64,000 nucleotides of DNA from an uncultured Bacilli bacterium (GCA_947594925.1 CANQEJ010000002.1:2-64001), one strand, 5' to 3'; shown: positions 3,391 through 58,002, counted from the stretch's first letter. A program made the numbers and translations. Notes: generated by a model not told the origin, from the letters alone.

Positions 3391-3441
3391 ACTTTAAGTT
3401 TTATTTTAATCATGCTATAATCTTTTTAGGATGTGAGACTA

Positions 3442-11269: not shown

Positions 11270-11468
11270 AAGAAAGCAAAAATAAAAGACTAGTAGTTAA
11301 TTAGAGCTTTAAAGAGAGTTAGTGGTTGGTGGAAACTAATAAGTAATAATTAATGAATCTCCTTTTTAGTGTAGCTAATCCCTACCGGGTAAAACCGTTA
11401 TCTAAAATTAAGTTAAATAAAGGATGGTACCGCATTATTTGCTCCTTGCAAGTAATGTGGTTTTTTTA
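11270..11468 (+). promoter_or_regulatory. T-box riboswitch leader, Ser specifier (UCU), with terminator
   Basis: AGAGAG bulge + GGTTGGTGGAAA distal loop; GAA-TCT-C specifier context; T-box AAAGGATGGTACCGCA; 13-bp terminator CCGCATTATTTGC/GCAAGTAATGTGG + T7; preceded by TGATAAGAT extended -10. Confidence 0.85.
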
Positions 11469-11485: not shown

Positions 11486-11731
11486 ATGCGGGAAGTAAAA
11501 GCTGGAGAAATATATCGCCATTTTAAGGGGTCTAAAGCATTTGTTATAACTATTGCTAAACATAGTGAAACAGGAGAAGATTTAGTAATTTATGCATGTG
11601 TTAGTAATGATAACACTAATCATAAAGACGGAATATATGCAAGACCTTATGCGATGTTTGTCTCGGAAGTAGACCATGAAAAATATCCAGATGTTAAACA
11701 AAAATACCGTTTTGAGAAAGTAGAGGAATAA
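11486..11731 (+). CDS. DUF1653-like small protein
   Basis: YRHFKGS...[13 protein letters not shown]...ARPYAMF pattern. Confidence 0.6.
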
Positions 11732-11733
11732 AA

Positions 11734-13020
11734 ATGATAGATATTAATTTAATAAGAGAAAACAAAGAATTAGTAAAAGAAAATATTAAAAAGAAGTTTC
11801 AAGATGAAAAACTTCCTTTAGTTGAAGAAATTTATGAATTAGATAAAAAATATCGAGAAACCAAACAAAAAATGGATGAAAAAAGAGCTTTAAAAAATAA
11901 ATTAAGTGACCAAATAGGGTCTTTAATGCGAGAAGGTAAAAAAGAAGAAGCTTTAAAAATTAAAGATGAAGTTGCCAAAATGGGTGAGGATATTGCCACT
12001 TTAACTCAAGATGAAGAAAAACTAAGTCAAGAAATTAAAACCAAAATGATGGTAATTCCTAATATAATTGCTGATGATGTGCCAATTGGTAAAGATGATA
12101 GTGAAAATGTCGAATTAAAACGTTTTGGGGACGCTTTTGTTCCTAATTATGAAATTCCTTATCATGCCGATATTTTAAATACTTTTAATGGTTTAGATAA
12201 AGAGGCAAGTGGTCGAACTAGTGGTAATGGCTTTTATTATTTAATGGGTGATATTGCTAGACTTTCTAGTGCAATGCTTTCCTACGCTCGTGATTTTATG
12301 ATTGAAAAAGGTTTTACCTATTGTATACCTCCTTTTATGATTAGAAGTGATGTCGTAACAGGTGTAATGTCCTTTGCCGAAATGGATGCCATGATGTATA
12401 AAATTGAAGGGGAAGATTTATATTTAATTGGAACGAGTGAACACTCTATGATAGGTAAATTTAAAGACCAAATTCTAAAAAAGGAAACGCTACCTATCAC
12501 TATGACTTCTTATTCTCCATGCTTTCGAAAAGAAGTAGGAGCTCATGGAATAGAAGAAAGAGGTATCTACCGAGTTCATCAATTTGAAAAACAAGAAATG
12601 ATTGTAATTTGTGAACCAGAAGATAGTGCTTCTTGGTATGAAAAGATGTGGCAATTTACGGTAGAATTATTCCGTAATTTAGATGTTCCGGTTCGCCAGC
12701 TTGAGTGTTGTAGTGGCGACCTTGCCGACCTTAAATATAAATCTTGTGATATTGAAGCTTGGTCTCCTCGTCAACAAAAATATTTTGAAGTAGGAAGTTG
12801 TTCTAACTTAACAGATGCCCAGGCCAGAAGATTAGGTATACGTGCTAAAGGCGATAAAGGTAATTATTACCTACATACCTTAAATAATACTGTTTTAGCT
12901 TCAACTAGAGCTTTGATTGCTTTAATTGAAAATAACTATCAAGAAGATGGTAGTGTTAAAATTCCTAAAGCTTTGCAACCTTATATGGGTGGTATTACTG
13001 TTATTAAACCTCATAAATAA
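11734..13020 (+). CDS. serS: Seryl-tRNA synthetase
   Basis: N-terminal coiled coil, class II motifs (FRKEVGAHG, GSCSN..D.QARRL, TLNNT). Confidence 0.95.
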   Translation: MIDINLIRENKELVKENIKKKFQDEKLPLVEEIYELDKKYRETKQKMDEKRALKNKLSDQIGSLMREGKKEEALKIKDEVAKMGEDIATLTQDEEKLSQEIKTKMMVIPNIIADDVPIGKDDSENVELKRFGDAFVPNYEIPYHADILNTFNGLDKEASGRTSGNGFYYLMGDIARLSSAMLSYARDFMIEKGFTYCIPPFMIRSDVVTGVMSFAEMDAMMYKIEGEDLYLIGTSEHSMIGKFKDQILKKETLPITMTSYSPCFRKEVGAHGIEERGIYRVHQFEKQEMIVICEPEDSASWYEKMWQFTVELFRNLDVPVRQLECCSGDLADLKYKSCDIEAWSPRQQKYFEVGSCSNLTDAQARRLGIRAKGDKGNYYLHTLNNTVLASTRALIALIENNYQEDGSVKIPKALQPYMGGITVIKPHK

Positions 13021-13112: not shown

Positions 13113-13559
13113 ATGACAGAATCCCAAATAAAAGACCAAATTAATACATTAACTAACCAAAAATTGCAATATTCTACTTGGTTAAGTAATAATTTTAATA
13201 GTGATGTTTCCCTAGAAGAAAAAACTAGAGTGCAAAATACGATTGAAGAGTTAGAAAAACAAATTAATGATTTGTATGACCAGTTAAAAGCAGCCCCATA
13301 TCGTATGTCTGAAACTCCACAACCAACAGTTAATGTAGAAGCTTCTTCATATGATAATTCTACCTATGATAATGTAGCTATCCAAGCCCAAGATGAAGCT
13401 AGAACTAGATTTTATGGTATGAGTAAACTAAAACAATCTATAGCCAGAATAAATGGTAAAAAAGAAAAATTTGAGCAATTATCAAATAAAGCATATGATG
13501 CAATTTCCAAAGAAGAACAACAACAAATAGCTGGTGAGCTTAATAAAATGTTTAGGTGA
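13113..13559 (+). CDS. Hypothetical coiled-coil protein
   Basis: ORF with GAGAGG RBS; no family recognised. Confidence 0.5.
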   Translation: MTESQIKDQINTLTNQKLQYSTWLSNNFNSDVSLEEKTRVQNTIEELEKQINDLYDQLKAAPYRMSETPQPTVNVEASSYDNSTYDNVAIQAQDEARTRFYGMSKLKQSIARINGKKEKFEQLSNKAYDAISKEEQQQIAGELNKMFR

Positions 13560-13564
13560 TAATA

Positions 13565-13864
13565 ATGAGTGAACCAGAAAACTTTACTACCTATATTGAA
13601 AATTTTAAAAAATTGCCTTTAAAAGAAAAACAAAGTATCATAATTGACCAAATGAAACTTTTAGCTAAATTTACTAATAATTTATGTGAAGAATTAGGAA
13701 CTAAAAGTGAGTTAATTATGAATAAAGAATTACTTGATTTAAAAAATGAAAATTATACCGAAGATGATTTTGCGGAGGCTGTAATAGTTTTAGTAAATAC
13801 AATTCAAAACTCTTTATGTGATGCTACCGATGCGATAGCAACAATTGCTGATACAATTAATTAA
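13565..13864 (+). CDS. Hypothetical small acidic protein
   Basis: ATG 13565 preceded by AGGTGA; coupled to upstream ORF. Confidence 0.5.
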   Translation: MSEPENFTTYIENFKKLPLKEKQSIIIDQMKLLAKFTNNLCEELGTKSELIMNKELLDLKNENYTEDDFAEAVIVLVNTIQNSLCDATDAIATIADTIN

Positions 13865-13871
13865 CCCTTAT

Positions 13872-13970
13872 TTGACAAATTAGTGTAAATATGATATAAT
13901 GATAATATCAGTGGGGATTGGTTAGCAATTATATTACATCTTAAATCCTTTGCTGAAAAGGATTTTTTTG
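13872..13970 (+). promoter_or_regulatory. SigmaA promoter (TTGACA-17-TGATATAAT) plus ~65-nt leader with intrinsic terminator; copy 1 of a twin element
   Basis: Hexamers read directly; hairpin AAATCCTTT/AAAGGATTT + T-run at 13943-13969; near-identical to 39524-39624. Confidence 0.7.
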
Positions 13971-13990
13971 TTATAAAAAGGGGGATTATC

Positions 13991-14914
13991 ATGGCAAATT
14001 TAGAAGAAGATTTAATATTTGCTAGTAAACTTATTGAAGATAAGGAAAAATGTGGGGAATATTTTACTATTTTTAATCGTCTATGGCCTTTTGCTACTGT
14101 TAATATGAAAGAATACTTAGAACCTTATAATTTAGAAGGTAAAACTTGTGTAACCTTACAAGGTAGTTCTGACCATATTTTTGAACTGGCTTTAAAAAAT
14201 CCAAAAGAAATAATTGGTTTTGATATTAACCCCCTTACTGGATATTATGGCAATTTAAAAATTGCGGCTTTAAAGGCTTTAAAAACTCAAGAAGAATATT
14301 TAACTTTCTTTCGCAATAAAGGTTATTCTAATAAACTGTTTAATAAAGAAACTTTTAAAGAGATATCTAAGTATTTAGAAGGTAATGCTAAAATATTTTG
14401 GGAAGAATTATTTCAAACATATTCATCTTGGCAAATTCGCGAAAATCTTTTTAGCAAAGATGAAGGAAATTGGTCGGAAATTAAAGGTGCTTTAAATTAC
14501 ATTACCCCTGAAAATTATGCCTATTTAAAAAATAATGTTCAAAATATTAATTTTACTTTTATGAATACTGATGTTAAAGAATTAGCATCTAGACTACCTT
14601 ATAATGTCGATTTTATCACTTTATCTAATTTAATTATCTATGCGCAGGGATTGTTTCCAGAAAACACTTTAGAAAATTGGCATCGTCTCATCGAATTATT
14701 AGCTTTAAGATTAAATAAAGATGGTCATATCATAGCTGGTTATTTCTATGAGATTGAAAACGAAGATGATTATAGAGATATGTATAATAAAAAACTTCGT
14801 GATAAAATCTTTAATAGTTCTTCTTATAGTTATCATTTATTTACTAAAATGGATGATTTAGCTCGTCAAAAAACATCTTCTAATCATGATGCTACCTTAG
14901 TTTATACTAAATAA
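13991..14914 (+). CDS. DUF3419/BtaA-like SAM-dependent transferase-fold protein
   Basis: VTLQGSSDHIFELAL..IIGFDINP....NLKIAALKAL..EEYLTFF resembles the DUF3419 signature. Confidence 0.5.
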   Translation: MANLEEDLIFASKLIEDKEKCGEYFTIFNRLWPFATVNMKEYLEPYNLEGKTCVTLQGSSDHIFELALKNPKEIIGFDINPLTGYYGNLKIAALKALKTQEEYLTFFRNKGYSNKLFNKETFKEISKYLEGNAKIFWEELFQTYSSWQIRENLFSKDEGNWSEIKGALNYITPENYAYLKNNVQNINFTFMNTDVKELASRLPYNVDFITLSNLIIYAQGLFPENTLENWHRLIELLALRLNKDGHIIAGYFYEIENEDDYRDMYNKKLRDKIFNSSSYSYHLFTKMDDLARQKTSSNHDATLVYTK

Positions 14915-14937
14915 AAGGCAATATAAATTGCTTTTTT
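14914..14937 (+). terminator. Rho-independent terminator
   Basis: GCAAT/ATTGC hairpin with A/T extension followed by T-run. Confidence 0.55.
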
Positions 14938-14987
14938 ATTTTCTTTCTAAAGGTGATATAATAAGCTTATAAGGAAGTTGATGTTTT

Positions 14988-16493
14988 ATGAAAATGGCTC
15001 TTAAAAGAGGAACAGTTGTAGCAATTGGTTTACTATTACAATTATGTTTAACTTTATTTGTTTATCTAGTTTTAGGTAAATATATTAAGATAATTGGTAT
15101 CCTATATTCTATTTTAAGTATTATAATCGTCCTAGGGATTATTAAAAACAGTAAAAGATTAAGTAGTGATTTACCATGGATAATAATAATTATGATATTT
15201 CCCTTAATAGGTTCTTTAATGTATGTTATTATTGGTCGAAATATTCATCGTAGTAGACTTTTAAAAAATATTAATAAAAGTATTGAAAAAAGTAATAAAT
15301 ATTTAGTTCAAGACCCAGATATTTTAACGGAAATAAACGCAAAAGAATATGGTGATTTAAAATATATTACCGAATTTGCTCATTTTCCGATAACTAAAAA
15401 TAATCAAGTAAAATATTTTCCTTTAGGCGATGAAGCTTTTCCGGTAATGTTAGAAGAATTAAAAAAAGCCGAAAATTATATCTTTATGGAATATTTTATT
15501 ATTAATAAGGGAGAGATGTGGGGTCAAATATTAGAAATTTTAAAAGAAAAAGCTCAAGCTGGTTTAGATGTTCGTGTTATATATGATGATTTAGGTTCTC
15601 TTGCCATGTTACCAAGTGATTACCCTAAAACTTTAGAAAGTTATGGCATAAAATGTGTACCTTTTAATAAATTAAAACCTTTTGCTGGAGTGATAATGAA
15701 TAATCGTGACCATCGAAAGATGCTTATTATTGATGGTCATACAGCCTTTTCTGGAGGTATTAATATTTCTGATGAATATATTAATGTTACCCATCCGCAC
15801 GGTCATTGGAAAGATAATGGTATAATGATTAAAGGTGAAGCAGTTTGGAACTTTACAGTAATGTTTTTAAGTATTTGGAACGCTTATATTAAAACGGATA
15901 GTGATTATACAAAATTTAAATATGAATTTAAGAAAAAATATAAAGCTAATGGTTATGTAGCTCCTTATGGTGAAAGTCCTTTAGATGATGAAATTATTGG
16001 TGAAGACATATATCTTAATATCTTAAGTGAAGCTAAAAAATATGTATATATTTATACCCCTTACCTAATTATTGATACGGATATGATAAATGCTTTAATA
16101 AGATGTGCTAAAAAAGGTGTAGATGTAAGACTTGTAGTGCCAGGTATTCCAGATAAAAAAACAGTATATAGTTTAACATCTTCTTACTTTGATGTTTTAT
16201 TAAAAGGTGGCGTTAAGATATATAAATACTCTAAAGGCTTTGTCCATAGTAAAGTATTTGTAGCTGATGATAAAGTTGCAACAGTAGGTACTATCAATTT
16301 AGATTATCGTAGTCTTTATTTACATTTTGAGTGTGGTGTTTATTTAAAAGAAGTAGATGCTATTAAAGATATATGTGATGATTTTAATAAAGCCTTTAAA
16401 GATTGTCAAAAACTTACGAAAAAAGATATTAAAACTAAATTCTTTGCCAAACTATGGCAAGCTATCTTACGCTTATTTGCTCCTTTAATGTAA
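14988..16493 (+). CDS. cls: Cardiolipin synthase
   Basis: Two HKD motifs (HRKMLIIDGHTAFSGGINISDEY; HSKVFVADDKVATVGTINLDYRS) and N-terminal TM helices. Confidence 0.9.
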   Translation: MKMALKRGTVVAIGLLLQLCLTLFVYLVLGKYIKIIGILYSILSIIIVLGIIKNSKRLSSDLPWIIIIMIFPLIGSLMYVIIGRNIHRSRLLKNINKSIEKSNKYLVQDPDILTEINAKEYGDLKYITEFAHFPITKNNQVKYFPLGDEAFPVMLEELKKAENYIFMEYFIINKGEMWGQILEILKEKAQAGLDVRVIYDDLGSLAMLPSDYPKTLESYGIKCVPFNKLKPFAGVIMNNRDHRKMLIIDGHTAFSGGINISDEYINVTHPHGHWKDNGIMIKGEAVWNFTVMFLSIWNAYIKTDSDYTKFKYEFKKKYKANGYVAPYGESPLDDEIIGEDIYLNILSEAKKYVYIYTPYLIIDTDMINALIRCAKKGVDVRLVVPGIPDKKTVYSLTSSYFDVLLKGGVKIYKYSKGFVHSKVFVADDKVATVGTINLDYRSLYLHFECGVYLKEVDAIKDICDDFNKAFKDCQKLTKKDIKTKFFAKLWQAILRLFAPLM

Positions 16494-27537: not shown

Positions 27538-27577
27538 AAAAAAAGGAAATAGAAGATTTATCTATAATATATATAAT
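27538..27577 (+). promoter_or_regulatory. Conserved 40-nt promoter block (AAAAAAAGGAAAT-N3-AGATTTATCTATAATATAT-N-TAAT), copy 1, upstream of comEA
   Basis: 36/40 ungapped identity with 34696-34735; TATAAT at 27563-27568 with no TTGACA-like -35. Confidence 0.6.
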
Positions 27578-27607
27578 AGGATAACTATTTTTCAAGAAAG
27601 GAATAAT

Positions 27608-28351
27608 ATGGATGAAATTTTAAATTATAATAAGAAAGGTAAAAAAGTTCTTTACTTTATTGGAGCTCTTATCCTTATTTTAGGTGGTATTATCAGTTAT
27701 TTTATTATTAATAAATATGATGATAATAACGAAAAAGAAACATCTATTGCTAGTCTTACTGATGAGTTAAAAGATAGTGATACAATAGACAAAGAGGAAG
27801 ATAAAAATGAGAATGCCACTAAAGATAAAGAGGTAAAGATTAAAGTAGATATTAAAGGAGCTATTAATAATCCTGGTGTCTATGAAGTTTCCGAAGATAC
27901 CATCGTTAATGAACTTATTAATATGGCAGGTGGCCTGATGGCTAATGCAACGACAAAAAATATTAATTTAAGTCGCAAACTTCAAGATGAAATGGTAGTC
28001 ATTATATATACGGAAAATGAACTTAAAAATAAGGAAGAAATAAAAGAAGATTGTTTAGAAGATAAAGTAGATATATCTTCATGTTATGAAGAAGAAAAAG
28101 CAATTGTTGTTCCTAAGAATACTACCGAAGAGGCTGCCCAAACTCAAAGTAGTAGTGATGCTAAAGTTTCTTTAAATAAGGCCTCTAAAGAAGAATTAAT
28201 GACTTTAAGTGGCATTGGGGAAGCTAAAGCATTAAAAATAATTGCCTATCGCGAAAGTAATGATGGTTTTAAAACAATTGATGAATTAATGGAAGTAAGT
28301 GGGATAGGGGAATCTATATTTAATAAGATTAAAGAACGTCTTACACTCTAA
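27608..28351 (+). CDS. comEA: Competence DNA receptor ComEA (TM anchor, SLBB-like domain, tandem helix-hairpin-helix)
   Basis: C-terminal LNKASKEELMTLSGIGEAKALKIIAYRE..G.F..IDELMEVSGIGESIFNKIK. Confidence 0.85.
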   Translation: MDEILNYNKKGKKVLYFIGALILILGGIISYFIINKYDDNNEKETSIASLTDELKDSDTIDKEEDKNENATKDKEVKIKVDIKGAINNPGVYEVSEDTIVNELINMAGGLMANATTKNINLSRKLQDEMVVIIYTENELKNKEEIKEDCLEDKVDISSCYEEEKAIVVPKNTTEEAAQTQSSSDAKVSLNKASKEELMTLSGIGEAKALKIIAYRESNDGFKTIDELMEVSGIGESIFNKIKERLTL

Positions 28352-34695: not shown

Positions 34696-34735
34696 AAAAA
34701 AAGGAAATCAGAGATTTATCTATAATATATCTAAT
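34696..34735 (+). promoter_or_regulatory. Conserved 40-nt promoter block, copy 2, upstream of M23 peptidase gene
   Basis: 36/40 identity to 27538-27577; TATAAT at 34721-34726; same 12-nt spacing from GGAAAT. Confidence 0.6.
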
Positions 34736-34784
34736 GTAAGGATTAAAAATTCTTACAAATCTAATAAAGAAAGGAGGTGAAAAA

Positions 34785-36230
34785 TTGAAGGCCTTGTTTT
34801 TTTCTAGTTTAGTTTGTCTATGTTTTTTAGCATGTGGTGTTTTATATTCGCAAAGCGATATTGAAACAGAAAAAAGCTTAGCTACTGAAAAACTAGAAAC
34901 TAAAGCATCTAATAAAACGGAGAAGTCTATTAGTAATATTAAAGAATTAAAATATAAAAAGCTAGAAACTAAAATAACAGATAACCAGGCTTTAGAAGAA
35001 GAAAGCGTTATTGCTATTAAAAATGAAGAAAGTCCTAAAGAAATAGATGCTTCTAACGTAGAAGAACTACCAGTAGAAGAAAGTGTTCAAGAGACTAACT
35101 CTTTAGAATTAATAGATAATAATGTTGTAGAAAAAGAAGTTCCTAAAGAAGAGATAAAAGAAGAAAACGATATTGAAAAAATAAAGCAAACTATTTCCTT
35201 ATTTTCCGATTCATTAGTTAAAGCTCAAAATATCGAAGAAATAAAAAGTAATGCTTTAGATTTAGAAAATATCGATACTAGTCTATTACAAGAAACATCT
35301 ACTATTTCTAATGATTTGAAAGAAGTCCAAAATGGTTATAATAATATATTACAAGTTGATGACTTTCTAAAAAAAGCTCAAGTGTTAGATAATCCAAATA
35401 AAACTAAAGATGATGTTTTAAGTTTAAAAGCTACATTACAAAGTGCTGATATTAAAAACATTGTTCAAACAATTCCTAATGATAAACTTAAGAATAATTA
35501 TCTAACTAAACTAGCTAACGTTACTAAAATATTAGATGATGAAACTTCTCCAGAAGTTAATATTGGTGATAATCAAGTTTTAAATGATAATGTTCAGTTA
35601 GAAATAACTGATGAAAATGCATATCAAGTATACTTAAATGGCCAACTAGTAGACGACTTGAATATTACCGAAAATGGCGAATACAATCTTAAAGTAGAAG
35701 ATGAAGCATTAAATGAAACTAATATTCATTTTAAATTAGAAAAACCGGAAGAAGAGGAAGAAGAAATCATTTATACCGAGGTTTCTAACGATACCGAAAG
35801 TATTCCCGAAGAAGAAAAAGAACAAACGCGCTATCCACTTAATAATTGGTATATGACCCAAGACTATGAAGGTAAAAATGGTCATATGGGGATAGATTTA
35901 GGAAGTTCTAATAAAAAAGAAGAAATCTATCCTATAGCAGATGGCACAGTAGTCTATGTCGGGCAAGATAATTATGGTGCTAATCTAGTTCAAATTAAAC
36001 ATAATATTAATGGAGAAGAGCTTTATTCAACTTATGGACATATGAGCGAAGTTTATTTTAATAATGACCAAGAGGTTAGTCAAAATGATTTATTAGGGTT
36101 AATGGGAGCTACTGGTAATGCTACTGGTCCTCATTTGCATTTAGAAATGGCTACCTGCGGATTTGAAGCCAATTGCTCTTATGCAACATATAAAGATAAT
36201 CTTGTTAATCCTTGGGATTACTTGCCTTAA
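34785..36230 (+). CDS. Secreted M23-family (LytM-type) peptidoglycan endopeptidase with long Glu/Lys-rich N-terminal region
   Basis: Signal peptide; HxxxD (NGHMGIDLG) and HxH (GPHLHLE) M23 motifs; TTG start after AAGGAGGTGA. Confidence 0.85.
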   Translation: MKALFFSSLVCLCFLACGVLYSQSDIETEKSLATEKLETKASNKTEKSISNIKELKYKKLETKITDNQALEEESVIAIKNEESPKEIDASNVEELPVEESVQETNSLELIDNNVVEKEVPKEEIKEENDIEKIKQTISLFSDSLVKAQNIEEIKSNALDLENIDTSLLQETSTISNDLKEVQNGYNNILQVDDFLKKAQVLDNPNKTKDDVLSLKATLQSADIKNIVQTIPNDKLKNNYLTKLANVTKILDDETSPEVNIGDNQVLNDNVQLEITDENAYQVYLNGQLVDDLNITENGEYNLKVEDEALNETNIHFKLEKPEEEEEEIIYTEVSNDTESIPEEEKEQTRYPLNNWYMTQDYEGKNGHMGIDLGSSNKKEEIYPIADGTVVYVGQDNYGANLVQIKHNINGEELYSTYGHMSEVYFNNDQEVSQNDLLGLMGATGNATGPHLHLEMATCGFEANCSYATYKDNLVNPWDYLP

Positions 36231-39523: not shown

Positions 39524-39624
39524 TTGACAAAAAAGTGTAAACATGATATAATTAAAGTACCAGTTGGGGGATTGGTTAGAGTTATTACGATATATTATTA
39601 ATCCTTTCAATTAAGGATTTTTTC
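39524..39624 (+). promoter_or_regulatory. SigmaA promoter (TTGACA-17-TGATATAAT) plus ~65-nt leader with intrinsic terminator; copy 2 of twin element
   Basis: Promoter 26/29 identical to 13872-13900; shared CAGTTGGGGGATTGGTTAG; hairpin AATCCTT/AAGGATT + T-run at 39600-39623. Confidence 0.7.
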
Positions 39625-39717
39625 TTGGTAAAATAGCCTTTTTTAGGAGGCAATTTGCAAAAAGAATACAACTATGGTAAAATGTAGTTACTCTATTAAA
39701 AAGAGAGGAATTTAATA

Positions 39718-40599
39718 ATGAAACTATTTAGAAATCCTTATTTTCAAAAAATAGGGAAGATAATGGCAGTCTTTATTTTAACTATCTTAGTAAGTGGAGC
39801 AAGTATTAAACAGATGGCAATTAAATCACAATCAAATTTACAAACCAAATATATTGCTGAAAATACTGATTTTCAAGTAGATTTACGTTTGGAAGAAGAA
39901 GTTAAAACTATTGATACATTTATTAAAGACAATGAAGAACAAATTCGTTTTTATGCTAATATGTTTGATATAGATTATGATACTGCTATAAATAAATTAA
40001 AAGAAATTAATAGTGACCCGACATTATATAATGAAAACAATATCGGTTTACTAAAAGATTCTTTTGGCAATATTTTAAGTTTTAATAGTATTGACCGTGG
40101 TATTTTAGAATTTATGAGTTCTTTAGAAACAACAAATCCTGAACTTGTAGGTTATAATTATCGTCCATGTGCAAATGATGCTGAATATATTGAAGGTTTA
40201 GTCCAATATTTTAGTTCTTTATACGATAATGTTGATTATAAATTAATGTTAAGTATTGGAGCGGCGGAAAGTGGTTATTATACTGCTAGTACTATGCTTT
40301 ATAAAAACAATATTTATGGTGGTATGGGTAGTGGTGGCCTTATTGCTTATAAAAATATCGAATATGGCGTATGGCAATACGTTAAAAGAATGAGTGAGCA
40401 ATATTATGCTAAGGGCTTAAATACCATTGAAAGCATTGGTTATGTTTTCTGCCCACGAATGGAAAATGGGGTAAAAGTTGCTAGTTCTCATTGGATTAGT
40501 TTAGTAAATAAAGCTTTAGAAACTTACAATTATGAAATTCGTTATGTTAGCATTTCTCAATTAAATGATTTAGCTAATAACGAAATAAACGAAATATAA
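39718..40599 (+). CDS. Membrane-anchored glucosaminidase-domain (LytD/FlgJ-type) protein
   Basis: SIGAAESGYYTASTMLYKNNIYGGMG resembles the mannosyl-glycoprotein endo-beta-N-acetylglucosaminidase core. Confidence 0.55.
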   Translation: MKLFRNPYFQKIGKIMAVFILTILVSGASIKQMAIKSQSNLQTKYIAENTDFQVDLRLEEEVKTIDTFIKDNEEQIRFYANMFDIDYDTAINKLKEINSDPTLYNENNIGLLKDSFGNILSFNSIDRGILEFMSSLETTNPELVGYNYRPCANDAEYIEGLVQYFSSLYDNVDYKLMLSIGAAESGYYTASTMLYKNNIYGGMGSGGLIAYKNIEYGVWQYVKRMSEQYYAKGLNTIESIGYVFCPRMENGVKVASSHWISLVNKALETYNYEIRYVSISQLNDLANNEINEI

Positions 40600-43136: not shown

Positions 43137-43230
43137 ATACTTCCTCCTTTAAATGAGCTTATAATAGCAAAATAACGTCAAATAGTAAATAATATTGTAT
43201 AAAATAAATATCTTGTGATATAATAAAAGT

Positions 43231-43376
43231 ACCTAGAGTAATAGTTTGTTTTATATAAAACCGACTAAGTGATACATTGGGAATCTAATTGCTCTTCGGT
43301 GTAGAAGACTGAGCCATTAAGTGATTCAGGATCCTAAAGAAAAGCATGTGATGCCCACCTCGCGCGAGCGGGTTTT
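43231..43376 (+). promoter_or_regulatory. Structured GC-rich 5' leader with terminator-like hairpin, unassigned class
   Basis: TGATATAAT extended -10 at 43216-43224; local hairpin TCTTC-GGTGTA-GAAGA; GC-rich hairpin CCCACCTCGCGCGAGCGGG + TTTTT at 43354-43376. Confidence 0.4.
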
Positions 43377-43422
43377 TATCACAACAGGCTATTATCTTCT
43401 AGGTTTTTATGTGGTGATTTTC

Positions 43423-48274: not shown

Positions 48275-48308
48275 AGGAAATTTAAAATCATTTCCCCATT
48301 TAAATCTT

Positions 48309-48458
48309 CTAACGAGCGTTATTACGAGCTGAGTTAGAATTTTTTGCGCTGTTGCTATTACTGTTTCTAGAACTATTATTATTTCTAGCACTATTGCAAC
48401 TACTATTGCTTTTAGAATTATTATTTCTTGCGCTATTATTATTTCTTGTATTACTCAT
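48309..48458 (-). CDS. Unannotated 49-aa basic Asn/Ser/Arg-repeat peptide
   Basis: GGGAGGT SD 8 nt before ATG. Translation is MSNTRNNNSARNNNSKSNSSCNSARNNNSSRNSNSNSAKNSNSARNNAR. It falls below the ORF-track length cutoff. Confidence 0.5.
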   Translation of the reverse strand: MSNTRNNNSARNNNSKSNSSCNSARNNNSSRNSNSNSAKNSNSARNNAR

Positions 48459-48570
48459 ATAAACTACCTCCCACTATTATTATGGATGAAAAAAAGCTAG
48501 TTATACAAAAAGTTAATGGAAAAACTTCCCATTTTATGTTAGGATATAATCCATAAAAAGGAAAGATATT

Positions 48571-57075: not shown

Positions 57076-57972
57076 ATGATGATTGATATTGAATTATACA
57101 AAATATTTTATGCTGTTGCTGAGTGTGGGACTATAACTAAAGCAAGCAACCTTCTTAATATATCCCAACCAGCTGTCACAAAACAATTAAAAAACTTAGA
57201 ACAAATGCTTAATAATCCCCTATTTATAAGAACTAAAAAAGGGGTCATTTTAACAGAATTTGGTCAAAAAATATTTCTTAAAGTAAAACAAGCCTTACTT
57301 CTTTTAGATGAAGTTGAAAAAGAAGCTCATAATTTTGCCCAAGTTTTAGAAGGTACTATCAAAATAGGTATCAGTACAACTCTCATGCGTCATTATCTTC
57401 TTTCTCATATTGAAAAATTCCACCAAACCTACCCCCAAATTGTTTTAGATATCTATACTGACCCTACCCAAGAATTAATAAATAAACTAAAAACGGGTCA
57501 AATTGATTTAATTATTGCCAAAAAGCCGAAAAATTTAGACCATGATTTAAAATTTATTCCCTTAGCCAAAACTTCTTATGTCTTCTTAGGAAATCCTAAA
57601 TATTTTCCTATAACTTCTCCTATCAATGCCAAACAATTAGAAAATTATCCCATTATTTTACCAAAAGAACCAGCTAACGCCCGACATAGTGCTACTACCT
57701 ACTTTCAAAATAATCATTTAAATATTACACCCAAAATGAATATTGCCAGTTCTAATTTACTTATTGATTTTATTAAAATGGGTTATGGTATTGGCTATGC
57801 CACTAAATTATACGCCCAAGAAGAAATTCAAAATAATAATTTAAAAATTATAAACGTTCTTCCTGCTCCCGAAGAAATTACCTTTGGTATTATAACCCTT
57901 AAAAACAATATTTTAAGTAAATCATGTCAAGCATTTATTACTTTAATCATTGAAAAGGGCTCTAACTTATGA
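57076..57972 (+). CDS. LysR-family transcriptional regulator
   Basis: N-terminal wHTH (ITKASNLLNISQPAVTKQLKNLE) + substrate-binding domain. Confidence 0.9.
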   Translation: MMIDIELYKIFYAVAECGTITKASNLLNISQPAVTKQLKNLEQMLNNPLFIRTKKGVILTEFGQKIFLKVKQALLLLDEVEKEAHNFAQVLEGTIKIGISTTLMRHYLLSHIEKFHQTYPQIVLDIYTDPTQELINKLKTGQIDLIIAKKPKNLDHDLKFIPLAKTSYVFLGNPKYFPITSPINAKQLENYPIILPKEPANARHSATTYFQNNHLNITPKMNIASSNLLIDFIKMGYGIGYATKLYAQEEIQNNNLKIINVLPAPEEITFGIITLKNNILSKSCQAFITLIIEKGSNL

Positions 57973-58002
57973 TACGCTTTTAATAGAATAAGAAGGTGTG
58001 TT

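What the first reader, a model, noticed from the sequence alone, without database searches (positions are those of the whole stretch)
13872..13970. Twin promoter-leader element, copy 1: candidate undescribed cis-regulatory RNA ahead of a DUF3419-cardiolipin synthase operon
A sigmaA promoter (TTGACA-17-TGATATAAT, 13872-13900) drives a ~65-nt leader. The leader ends in a 9-bp hairpin AAATCCTTT/AAAGGATTT plus T-run (13943-13969), only ~20 nt before the gene's RBS. The same architecture recurs 25.6 kb away at 39524-39624.

The two promoter blocks are 26/29 identical. This includes the normally unconstrained spacer (AGTGTAAAnATGA). The leaders share CAGT(T)GGGGATTGGTTAG, then a variable AT-rich ~20 nt, then identical terminator arms with different loops.

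GGGGATT (13913-13919) can pair with AATCCTT, the 5' terminator arm. That gives a built-in antiterminator alternative. It also mimics the downstream SD (GGGGGATT, 13980-13987).

I could not match it to the classes I know (T-box, preQ1, SAM, TPP, purine, ydaO/c-di-AMP, guanidine, fluoride). Both copies precede cell-envelope genes: lipid head-group/cardiolipin here, and a glucosaminidase-like gene at copy 2.

A protein operator is an alternative explanation. The spacer TGTAAA-N5-TATAAT is one mismatch from the WalR direct-repeat consensus TGTWAH-N5-TGTWAH.
Basis: partly seen in the sequence, partly recalled or inferred. Interest (0 to 1): 0.72.

Follow-up and report, generated by a model that had tools for sequence, protein, structure and literature searches.

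The report
Self-promoted terminator/antiterminator leader, small gene family
The two look-alike stretches are real copies of a small, undescribed promoter-plus-leader module, seen so far only in a few uncultured rabbit-gut Bacilli, that most likely decides whether transcription stops or continues into cell-envelope genes; what it senses is unknown.

Summary
Window 13872-13970 and 39524-39625 each carry a perfect TTGACA-17-TGnTATAAT promoter, the motif CAGT(T)GGGG(G)ATTGGTTAG 8-9 nt after the -10 hexamer (so about 2-4 nt after the predicted start), an AT-rich linker, and an AATCCTT/AAGGATT hairpin with a T-run. Nothing in Rfam 15 matches.

I found six more copies in relatives: 8 sequences at 3 loci, from at least 4 uncultured Bacilli genomes. 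In 7 of the 8, the T-run is followed within 3-12 nt by the ribosome-binding site of a gene. Those genes are DUF3419-cardiolipin synthase, a lipoprotein, and a Cys-rich secreted protein after priA.

The promoter spacer, linker and loop all vary between genomes. The 5' G-rich motif and the hairpin arms do not. In all 8 copies the 5' motif is predicted to pair with the terminator's 5' arm and loop (-8.9 to -12.6 kcal/mol) before the 3' arm is made. Compensatory changes support both helices.

Best reading: a compact transcription attenuator that reads through by default and terminates when an unknown factor sequesters the 5' motif.

Copy 2 is an orphan; the glucosaminidase-like gene downstream has its own conserved promoter.

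The parts
13872..13900 (+). Copy 1 promoter: -35 TTGACA (13872-13877), 17-nt spacer, extended -10 TGATATAAT (13892-13900)
   Evidence: 12/12 hexamer match with TG. The same promoter, 28/29 identical, heads the L042 copy.
13907..13922 (+). Copy 1 predicted 5'-terminal hairpin P1: AUCAGU / GGGG loop / AUUGGU, starting at about the predicted transcription start
   Evidence: Predicted fold. On the model-fitted alignment 95.8% of cells pair, with only one-sided changes (U-G to C-G, G-U to A-U, A-U to G-U).
13909..13925 (+). Copy 1 conserved 5' motif CAGTGGGGATTGGTTAG. Nucleotides 13909-13919 are the 5' strand of the antiterminator.
   Evidence: Family consensus CA(G/A)U-GGGG(G)-AU(U/A)GGUU-RR holds in all 8 copies.
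13926..13942 (+). Copy 1 variable AU-rich linker
   Evidence: Length (8-21 nt) and sequence are not conserved among copies.
13943..13969 (+). Copy 1 intrinsic-terminator-like hairpin AAATCCTTT-GCTGA-AAAGGATTT plus T7. Nucleotides 13944-13955 (5' arm plus loop) are the 3' strand of the antiterminator.
   Evidence: Hairpin -8.3 kcal/mol. The antiterminator (-9.7 kcal/mol) is the minimum-energy fold until the 3' arm is made. Predicted barrier from antiterminator to terminator is 12.2 kcal/mol.
13970..13993 (+). GTTATAA spacer, SD GGGGGATT (13980-13987) and ATG (13991) of the DUF3419 gene. There is no room for a separate promoter.
   Evidence: A (N)TTATAA-plus-SD stretch follows the T-run in 6 of 8 copies.
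13991..16493 (+). Controlled genes: DUF3419 protein (13991-14914) and cardiolipin synthase (14988-16493)
   Evidence: Pfam PF11899, PLDc_2. TIGR04265 scores 336 bits against a 290-bit cut-off.
39524..39552 (+). Copy 2 promoter: TTGACA, 17-nt spacer, TGATATAAT
   Evidence: 12/12 with TG; 26/29 identical to copy 1.
39559..39579 (+). Copy 2 P1 hairpin (ACCAGUU / GGGG / GAUUGGU, 39559-39576) and 5' motif CAGTTGGGGGATTGGTTAG (39561-39579)
   Evidence: P1 -6.0 kcal/mol. The extra U and G relative to copy 1 can form one more U-G pair.
39600..39623 (+). Copy 2 hairpin AATCCTT-TCAATT-AAGGATT plus T6. Nucleotides 39600-39612 pair with 39562-39573 in the antiterminator.
39624..39654 (+). Stretch after copy 2 where relatives have the RBS and start codon of a cargo gene. 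Here there is only an AGGAGG followed by a 10-codon TTG frame. I read this as the remnant of a lost gene.
   Evidence: Read directly. L038 has a 272-aa lipoprotein gene at this point.
39655..39717 (+). Not part of the element: the glucosaminidase-like gene's own promoter (TTGCAA-17-TGGTAAAAT, 39655-39683) and leader ACTCTATTAAAAAGAGAGG (gene 39718-40599)
   Evidence: The same promoter and leader are present in L037, L039, L040 and L038, with or without the element.

Best explanation
The element is a compact cis-acting transcription attenuator that travels with its own strong sigma-A promoter. The transcript is about 55-66 nt long.

It starts with a weak hairpin, P1 (AUCAGU-GGGG-AUUGGU), which displays a conserved G-rich segment. 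As the terminator's 5' arm (AAUCCUU) and loop emerge from the polymerase, CAGUGGGGAUU pairs with them. This forms an antiterminator of 10-12 pairs and prevents the AAUCCUU/AAGGAUU-U6-7 terminator from forming. RNA polymerase then reads into the gene, whose ribosome-binding site lies 3-12 nt beyond the U-run.

I infer that read-through is the default. Termination would occur when an unidentified factor (an RNA-binding protein, a small RNA or a small ligand) holds the 5' segment or stabilises P1.

Copy 1 controls the DUF3419-cardiolipin synthase operon. Copy 2 is an orphan whose cargo gene has been lost. It would give either a short terminated RNA or read-through into the next gene.

Shown here: the anatomy, the pattern of conservation, and the mutually exclusive pairings. 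Inferred: that termination really occurs, which state is the default, and that a factor exists.
For: - Family size. Eight homologous copies at three loci all keep the same order of parts.
- Position relative to genes. In 7 of 8 the U-run is followed within 3-12 nt by an SD and start codon, with no room for another promoter. The downstream gene therefore depends on read-through.
- Selective conservation. The promoter spacer, linker (8-21 nt) and loop (4-7 nt) all diverge. CA(G/A)UGGGG(G)AU(U/A)GGUU, AAUCCU(U/A) and (A/U)AGGAUU-U6-7 stay fixed.
- Predicted folding. Before the 3' arm is transcribed, the antiterminator is the minimum-energy fold in 8 of 8 copies (-8.9 to -12.6 kcal/mol). It remains the full-length minimum-energy fold in 5 of 8. 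The two states differ by only 0.1-5.7 kcal/mol (under 1.5 in four of eight copies), and predicted barriers from antiterminator to terminator are 10.5-16.6 kcal/mol.
- Compensatory changes. The pairing of the 5' tetranucleotide with the terminator loop is CAGU:GCUG in copy 1 and L008, but CAAU:AUUG in L038, L043 and L042, a G-C to A-U change. The innermost terminator pair is U-A in seven copies and A-U in L042 (read).
- Loop complementarity. The real loops extend the antiterminator better than random AU-rich loops in copy 1/L008 (0.03), L038/L043 (0.004) and L042 (0.05). The other three copies extend it on the inner side instead, for example GGUU:AACU.
- Variable spacing. Loop length and motif-to-hairpin distance vary, and G-U pairs occur. 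These fit RNA pairing and do not fit a rigid DNA operator.
Against: - No transcript data exist. The start site, termination and regulation are all predictions.
- There are only 8 sequences from about 4-5 independent lineages. Several are paralogues within one genome, so the covariation rests on very few events.
- The model-fitted alignment shifts the terminator out of register, so its pair counts for that helix are unreliable.
- The hairpin is weak (-5.5 to -9.4 kcal/mol, 2 G-C pairs) and fails the scan tool's terminator rule.
- When the upstream part is shuffled, the antiterminator energy is exceeded in only 0.2-13% of shuffles per sequence. That is suggestive, not decisive.
- No effector was identified. 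The downstream genes share no single pathway.
- A close relative (L028, DUF3419 protein 82% identical) expresses DUF3419-cls from a promoter at the same place without the hairpin. The element is therefore dispensable at that locus.
Confidence: 0.55

Rival explanations
1. No sensing takes place. The module is just a strong promoter with a 5'-end-paired stabilising leader and a leaky hairpin. Its apparent conservation reflects recent duplication and gene conversion among paralogues in a narrow lineage.
For: - Distribution is very narrow: 2 true hits among 185,579 species genomes, none in JGI metagenomes and none in viral contigs.
- Copies within one genome share promoter spacers. Copy 1 and L042 are 28/29 identical, which suggests homogenisation.
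- The L028 orthologue lacks the element.
- The antiterminator is predicted to win in most copies, so the terminator might rarely act.
- Both P1 and the antiterminator pair the 5' end. In Firmicutes that is known to protect mRNA from 5' exonuclease (my own knowledge, RNase J1).
Against: - Spacer, linker and loop have diverged heavily between genomes, yet the 5' motif, both arms and the U6-7 run are fixed.
- Compensatory changes keep both helices.
- A U-run kept at 6-7 in 8 of 8 copies has no role in a pure stabiliser.
Confidence: 0.2
2. The functional product is the short terminated RNA itself: a trans-acting small RNA of about 60 nt. Its G-rich 5' loop, or its anti-SD-like AAUCCUUU segment, would pair with other RNAs. 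The downstream genes would simply be expressed by leakage.
For: - Copy 2 keeps an intact perfect promoter, motif, the strongest P1 of the set (-6.0 kcal/mol) and the terminator, although no cargo gene follows it.
- The promoter-plus-terminator anatomy fits a small RNA gene.
- 5'-UTR-derived small RNAs are known in other bacteria (my own knowledge).
Against: - Seven of 8 copies abut an RBS with no intervening promoter.
- The conserved alternative pairing has no purpose in a plain small RNA.
- No complementary target was seen in the window: the 17-mer search on both strands, with up to 3 mismatches, found only copy 1 itself.
- The two roles are not mutually exclusive.
Confidence: 0.15
3. The conserved blocks are DNA operators. 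Either a WalR-type response regulator binds the promoter spacer (TGTAAA-N5-TATAAT), or a repressor binds RRGGATT half-sites at about +7 and in the inverted repeat.
For: - The spacer AGTGTAAAYATGATAT is shared by all three copies attributed to the window's genome.
- GGGGATT, AATCCTT and AAGGATT can be read as three half-sites, and the inverted repeat is perfect at the DNA level.
Against: - The spacer is not conserved in L008, L007, L041, L038 or L043.
- The gap between inverted half-sites varies by 4-7 bp, and the distance from the 5' motif to the hairpin varies by 8-21 bp. A dimeric DNA-binding protein would not normally tolerate this.
- P1 and the antiterminator rely on G-U pairs and are strand-specific.
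- The T6-7 run is conserved.
Confidence: 0.07

Closest known systems
Bacillus subtilis pyrG leader (CTP-sensitive reiterative transcription attenuation; Meng, Turnbough & Switzer 2004, as cited in PMC4448216)
   Same: Very short leader directly after the promoter. A run of G at the 5' end pairs with the pyrimidine-rich 5' arm of an intrinsic terminator and prevents termination (mechanism from PMC4448216 plus my own knowledge).
   Different: Here the G-run is encoded in the genome, 6-7 nt after the predicted start, not added by slippage at a GGGC start. The downstream genes are not pyrG. Rfam's PyrG_leader model gives only a 17-bit chance hit elsewhere, at 39688-39744. No nucleotide-sensing step is evident.
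HMP-PP (thiS motif) riboswitch with a terminator-embedded aptamer (PMC6478431)
   Same: Unusually compact switch. Conserved nucleotides sit inside an otherwise classic terminator hairpin, the loop matters, and a mutually exclusive second fold exists.
   Different: No Rfam match. No link with thiamin genes. The conserved partner here is a 5' G-rich segment that pairs with the arm, not a ligand pocket within the stem. The thiS motif has 400 representatives in two phyla, against 8 here in one narrow lineage.
Protein-dependent attenuators of Firmicutes (TRAP-trp leader, PyrR-pyr leaders; my own knowledge)
   Same: The logic I propose is the same: the antiterminator forms by default, and a factor binding its 5' strand frees the terminator's 5' arm so that termination occurs.
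   Different: No (G/U)AG repeat array and no PyrR binding loop. No Rfam PyrR hit on the element. tblastn with PyrR found nothing in 244 kb of related sequence, which covers too little to be informative. The factor here is hypothetical.
BglG/LicT-type RAT antiterminator sites (my own knowledge)
   Same: GGAUUGGUUAG resembles the 5' half of the RAT consensus (GGAUUGUUACUG), and RAT also overlaps a terminator's 5' arm.
   Different: The RAT 3' half (CAGGCAAAACC-like) is absent. No PTS or PRD-antiterminator genes lie nearby.

Membership tests
Any Rfam 15 family (4227 models, including T-box, preQ1, SAM, TPP, purine, ydaO, guanidine, fluoride, thiS/HMP-PP, PyrG_leader, PyrR) | Covariance-model score at or above the family's gathering threshold | tested here: not met
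   Whole window at gathering threshold: only 6S RNA. Both copies at E up to 10: best scores 14-19 bits against thresholds of 41-65.
Intrinsic (Rho-independent) terminator | Stable stem-loop immediately followed by a U-run | tested here: met
   7-10 bp stems (-5.5 to -9.4 kcal/mol) followed by U6-7 in 8 of 8 copies. Actual termination was not testable.
Terminator/antiterminator transcription attenuator | A conserved alternative helix that uses the terminator's 5' arm and excludes the terminator | tested here: met
   The antiterminator is the minimum-energy fold before the 3' arm in 8 of 8 copies. Barriers are 10.5-16.6 kcal/mol. One G-C to A-U compensatory change in the loop-pairing part.
Terminator/antiterminator transcription attenuator | Signal-dependent change in the ratio of terminated to read-through transcripts | not testable with these tools
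   Needs Term-seq or RNA-seq, or in vitro transcription.
Metabolite riboswitch | Structured conserved aptamer, plus consistent association with genes of one pathway or transport function | tested here: inconclusive
   The conserved unpaired or alternatively paired core is only about 17 nt. Downstream genes are heterogeneous: DUF3419-cls, a lipoprotein and a Cys-rich secreted protein. No ligand can be inferred. Ligand binding is not testable here.
pyrG-type reiterative-transcription leader | Start at a GGGC-like run where extra G are added, and a pyrG gene downstream | tested here: not met
   The G-run begins 12-13 nt after the -10 hexamer, about 6-7 nt after the predicted start. Downstream genes are not pyrG.
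WalR (YycF) operator | Direct repeat TGTWAH-N5-TGTWAH conserved at the promoter | tested here: not met
   Present with one mismatch only in copies from the window's genome. The spacers of L008, L007, L041, L038 and L043 do not keep the first half-site.
Trans-acting small RNA gene | Independent transcription unit (own promoter and terminator, no cargo gene) with a conserved seed and targets | tested here: inconclusive
   Copy 2 is such a unit, but the other 7 copies abut an RBS. No target was found in the window. Targets elsewhere in the genome could not be searched.

The most novel reading that the evidence does not exclude
This is a previously unseen, ultra-compact riboregulator class. A G-rich segment at the very 5' end of the transcript (13 nt invariant in five of eight copies, GGGGAU.GGUU in all eight) is the receptor for a dedicated factor: a protein, a small RNA or a small ligand. 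That factor co-ordinates a small cell-envelope regulon (membrane lipid head-group genes, a lipoprotein and a secreted Cys-rich protein) in an uncultured gut Bacilli lineage. The whole promoter-leader unit spreads within genomes as a cassette that captures, and sometimes loses, cargo genes.
Probability: 0.3. Interest if true: 0.6.

Novelty: new member of a known kind. Interest (0 to 1): 0.45.

Why it matters
If the model holds, this is a new family of very small attenuators (about 60 nt including the expression platform) that current catalogues do not contain. It would also be an example of a regulatory leader that moves together with its promoter between genes.

It would give a handle on how an uncultured, low-GC gut Bacilli lineage regulates its envelope genes. 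It also offers a minimal natural scaffold for engineered terminator/antiterminator switches.

Its very narrow distribution and unknown effector limit wider significance for now.

Tried and rejected
- **Rfam.** Gathering and permissive scans assigned no family.
- **Genome collection scan.** One exact-pattern scan gave 2 true relatives (L007, L008) and 2 chance hits (L009, L010).
- **Metagenome scan.** All 17 hits lack the promoter and terminator, so they are chance matches.
- **Viral contigs.** 0 hits.
- **More copies.** Covariance models R1 and R2 found none in the window (filters off) or in about 180-200 kb of related loci. The 22.6-bit hit at 57900-57975 lacks the G-run and lies in coding sequence, so I rejected it.
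- **Leader peptide.** Rejected. No canonical start codon lies 5-9 nt after the G-run, and the frames differ between copies (read).
- **WalR or other DNA operator.** Rejected as the family-wide explanation, because the spacer is not conserved and the half-site spacing varies.
- **BglG/LicT RAT.** Only the 5' half resembles it.
- **tRNA-like.** There is a D-loop-like CAGUUGG..GGUUAGAG, but no cloverleaf. I did not pursue it.
- **CsrA site.** GGA motifs occur in the 5' motif, the 3' arm and the SD, so this is conceivable. tblastn found no CsrA, Hfq, NusG or PyrR in 244 kb, which covers too little of any genome to be informative.
- **Model-fitted alignment A6.** It shifts the terminator out of register between sequences, so its both-sides changes for helix 2 are artefacts. 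I read the terminator and antiterminator pairs directly from the sequences instead.
- **Function of the secreted protein.** No PDB relative, and only weak family hits.

Full report

Yes. Copy 1 reads TTGACAAATTAGTGTAAATATGATATAAT (13872-13900), then GATAATAT, then CAGTGGGGATTGGTTAG (13909-13925). A 17-nt AT-rich linker follows, then AAATCCTTT-GCTGA-AAAGGATTT (13943-13965), with the T-run ending at 13969. After that come GTTATAAAAA, the SD GGGGGATT (13980-13987) and the ATG at 13991.

Copy 2 reads TTGACAAAAAAGTGTAAACATGATATAAT (39524-39552), then CAGTTGGGGGATTGGTTAG (39561-39579), a 20-nt linker, and AATCCTT-TCAATT-AAGGATT plus T6 (39600-39623).

Both promoters score 12/12 with a TG extension. 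The degenerate 29-mer occurs exactly twice in the window, against 0 in 100 shuffles.

Minor corrections: in copy 1 the T-run ends 10 nt before the SD, and the arms shared by both copies are 7 nt long.

**2. Is it a known RNA?**

No. The whole window at Rfam gathering thresholds gives only 6S RNA at 43227-43409. Permissive scans of both copies give nothing above 19 bits.

**3. Relatives**

The window has 26.9% G+C. Its exact proteins occur only on a few ENA and Logan metagenome contigs.

- A pattern scan of 185,579 species genomes found two true relatives, both "uncultured Bacilli bacterium" MAGs from rabbit gut: L008 and L007. It also gave two chance hits.
- A JGI metagenome scan gave only chance hits.
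- A viral scan gave none.

I then fetched orthologous loci through the neighbouring proteins. This brought the total to eight copies at three loci:

- **SerRS → element → DUF3419-cls.** Window copy 1 and L008.
- **Polysaccharide deacetylase → element.** Window copy 2 and L038.
- **priA → element → Cys-rich secreted protein of about 290 aa.** L007, L041, L043 and L042.

L042 comes from the same sequencing run as L001, which is identical to the window at copy 1. Its promoter is 28/29 identical to copy 1's. The window's organism therefore probably has at least three copies.

L028, L038 and L043 belong to one further species.

Covariance models built from 5 and then 8 copies found no other copy. 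They were run over the window with filters off and over about 180-200 kb of related DNA.

**4. What is conserved and what is not**

Conserved in all eight copies:

- the -35 and -10 hexamers;
- the 8-9 nt between the -10 hexamer and CA(G/A)U;
- CA(G/A)U-GGGG(G)-AU(U/A)GGUU-RR;
- AAUCCU(U/A);
- (A/U)AGGAUU followed by U6-7.

In 6 of 8 copies, (N)UUAUAA plus an SD follows the U-run.

Not conserved:

- the promoter spacer, except between copies within one genome;
- the linker (8-21 nt);
- the loop (4-7 nt).

The spacer AGTGTAAAYATGATAT is a feature of the window's genome only.

**5. Relation to genes**

In 7 of 8 copies the U-run is followed within 3-12 nt by an SD and start codon. That leaves no room for another promoter, so expression of the gene depends on read-through.

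Copy 2 is the exception. After its U-run there is only a degenerate stretch (39624-39654). Then comes a separate promoter (39655-39683) and the leader ACTCTATTAAAAAGAGAGG of the glucosaminidase-like gene. That promoter and leader are conserved in L037, L039 and L040, which have no element at all. They are also present in L038.

In L038 the element instead directly precedes an extra 272-aa lipoprotein gene, which has an LAGC lipobox and Cys-containing repeats. I therefore read copy 2 as an orphan whose cargo gene was lost.

Conversely, L028 has a DUF3419 protein 82% identical to the window's. It has a promoter in the same place as copy 1 but a different 55-nt leader with no hairpin. L031, L032 and L035 lack the element as well.

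The module is thus gained and lost at individual loci. The priA locus is its most widespread site.

**6. Structure**

Three pairings compete.

- **P1** (AUCAGU/AUUGGU around a GGGG loop) sits at the predicted 5' end (-2.5 to -6.0 kcal/mol where it is the predicted fold). Its variation is all one-sided and compatible with pairing, apart from two mismatched cells.
- **The terminator (T)** has 7 invariant core pairs (-5.5 to -9.4 kcal/mol). There is one compensatory change, U-A to A-U at the innermost pair, in L042.
- **The antiterminator (AT)** pairs GGGGAUU with AAUCCUU (5 Watson-Crick pairs and 2 G-U pairs). It is extended either outward or inward.
  - Outward, the CA(G/A)U tetranucleotide pairs with the terminator loop: CAGU:GCUG in copy 1 and L008, and CAAU:AUUG in L038, L043 and L042. 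That is a G-C to A-U compensatory change.
  - Inward, the extension is GGUU:AACU in L007 and L041, and GG:UU in copy 2.

Folding predictions:

- With only the 5' arm and loop available, the antiterminator is the minimum-energy fold in 8 of 8 copies (-8.9 to -12.6 kcal/mol).
- It remains the full-length minimum-energy fold in 5 of 8 copies.
- Shuffling the upstream part reaches the observed energy in 0.2-13% of trials per sequence.
- Replacing the loop with random AU-rich loops reaches it in 0.4-5% of trials for the five loop-pairing copies. For the three that extend inward there is no advantage.
- The two states differ by 0.1-5.7 kcal/mol (under 1.5 in four of eight copies). They are separated by predicted barriers of 10.5-16.6 kcal/mol going from antiterminator to terminator.

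**7. Most likely mechanism**

This is a self-promoted transcription attenuator.

The antiterminator can form before the terminator's 3' arm exists, and it is then kinetically trapped. Read-through is therefore the likely default. Termination would need something that withholds the 5' G-rich strand: a bound protein, a bound RNA, or a stabilised P1.

The fixed sequence of the three interacting segments fits a three-way constraint, since AAUCCUU must pair with two different partners. The conserved GGUU-RR just beyond P1 is not explained by pairing. It is the best hint of a sequence-specific trans factor.

None of the transcriptional behaviour has been shown.

**8. Rivals**

- **An unregulated strong promoter with a stabilising leader**, whose conservation reflects young paralogy (0.2).
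- **A trans-acting small RNA** of about 60 nt (0.15). The intact orphan copy 2 favours this; the RBS abutting the other seven copies argues against it. The two roles could coexist.
- **A DNA operator** (0.07). The non-conserved spacer, variable half-site spacing, G-U pairs and conserved T-run all argue against it.

**9. Comparison with known systems**

It works most like the B. subtilis pyrG leader, in which 5' G residues pair with the pyrimidine arm of a terminator (PMC4448216, citing Meng et al. 2004). Here, however, the G-run is encoded in the genome and pyrG is not involved.

It shares its extreme compactness and sequence-conserved terminator with the HMP-PP thiS riboswitch (PMC6478431). 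It does not share that riboswitch's sequence, gene context or breadth of distribution.

The default-on, factor-terminated logic I propose is that of TRAP and PyrR. None of their defining binding sites is present.

It is a member of none of these families.

**10. Verdict**

The feature is real and belongs to no described family. It is best filed as a new small family within the known kind "terminator/antiterminator leader".

The WalR idea and the assignment of copy 2 to the glucosaminidase-like gene do not.

Interest is moderate. The design is neat and uncatalogued, and it comes with cassette-like spread and an orphan copy. But it is confined to a handful of uncultured genomes, rests on eight sequences, and has no known signal.

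Noticed in passing
window 11270-11449 (+): A T-box leader ahead of the small ORF at 11486-11731 and seryl-tRNA synthetase (11734-13020). It scores 87 bits (E = 8e-20), just under Rfam's 93-bit gathering score, so the default scan missed it.
   Followed up: partly
window about 27539-27580 and 34701-34742 (+): A second twin-promoter pair: AAAAAAAGGAAAT(AGA/CAG)AGATTTATCTATAATATAT(A/C)TAAT. It lies upstream of genes 27608-28351 and 34785-36230. This suggests paralogous promoter blocks are a habit of this genome, or that the two genes share a regulator site.
   Followed up: partly
window 43227-43409 (+): 6S RNA (RF00013, 47.5 bits), the only Rfam gathering-level hit in the window.
   Followed up: no
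window 13113-13864 (+): Two ORFs of unknown function (148 and 102 aa, coiled-coil-like, no Pfam family). They lie between SerRS and copy 1 in the window but are absent from the orthologous spot in L008 and L028, so they are a lineage-specific insertion just upstream of the element.
   Followed up: partly
L038 9021-9032 and 9981-9992: A 12-nt direct repeat, TTTGCAAAATTT, brackets the element-plus-lipoprotein insert. The right-hand copy is the -35 region of the next gene's promoter. This may be a footprint of how the cassette was inserted or duplicated.
   Followed up: no
L007 3661-3666; L042 3346-3426; L038 10001-10043: In L007 the priA stop codon (TGA) lies inside the element's -35 hexamer. 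In L042 and L038 the public gene calls start too early: the called ORFs run over the element (L042) or over the promoter (L038). The alignment with L007 puts the true L042 start at 3427.
   Followed up: partly
window 48275-48570: A low-complexity repetitive intergenic stretch (ATTATTATTTCT(A/T)G-like units), possibly a small Ser/Asn-rich ORF on the minus strand.
   Followed up: no
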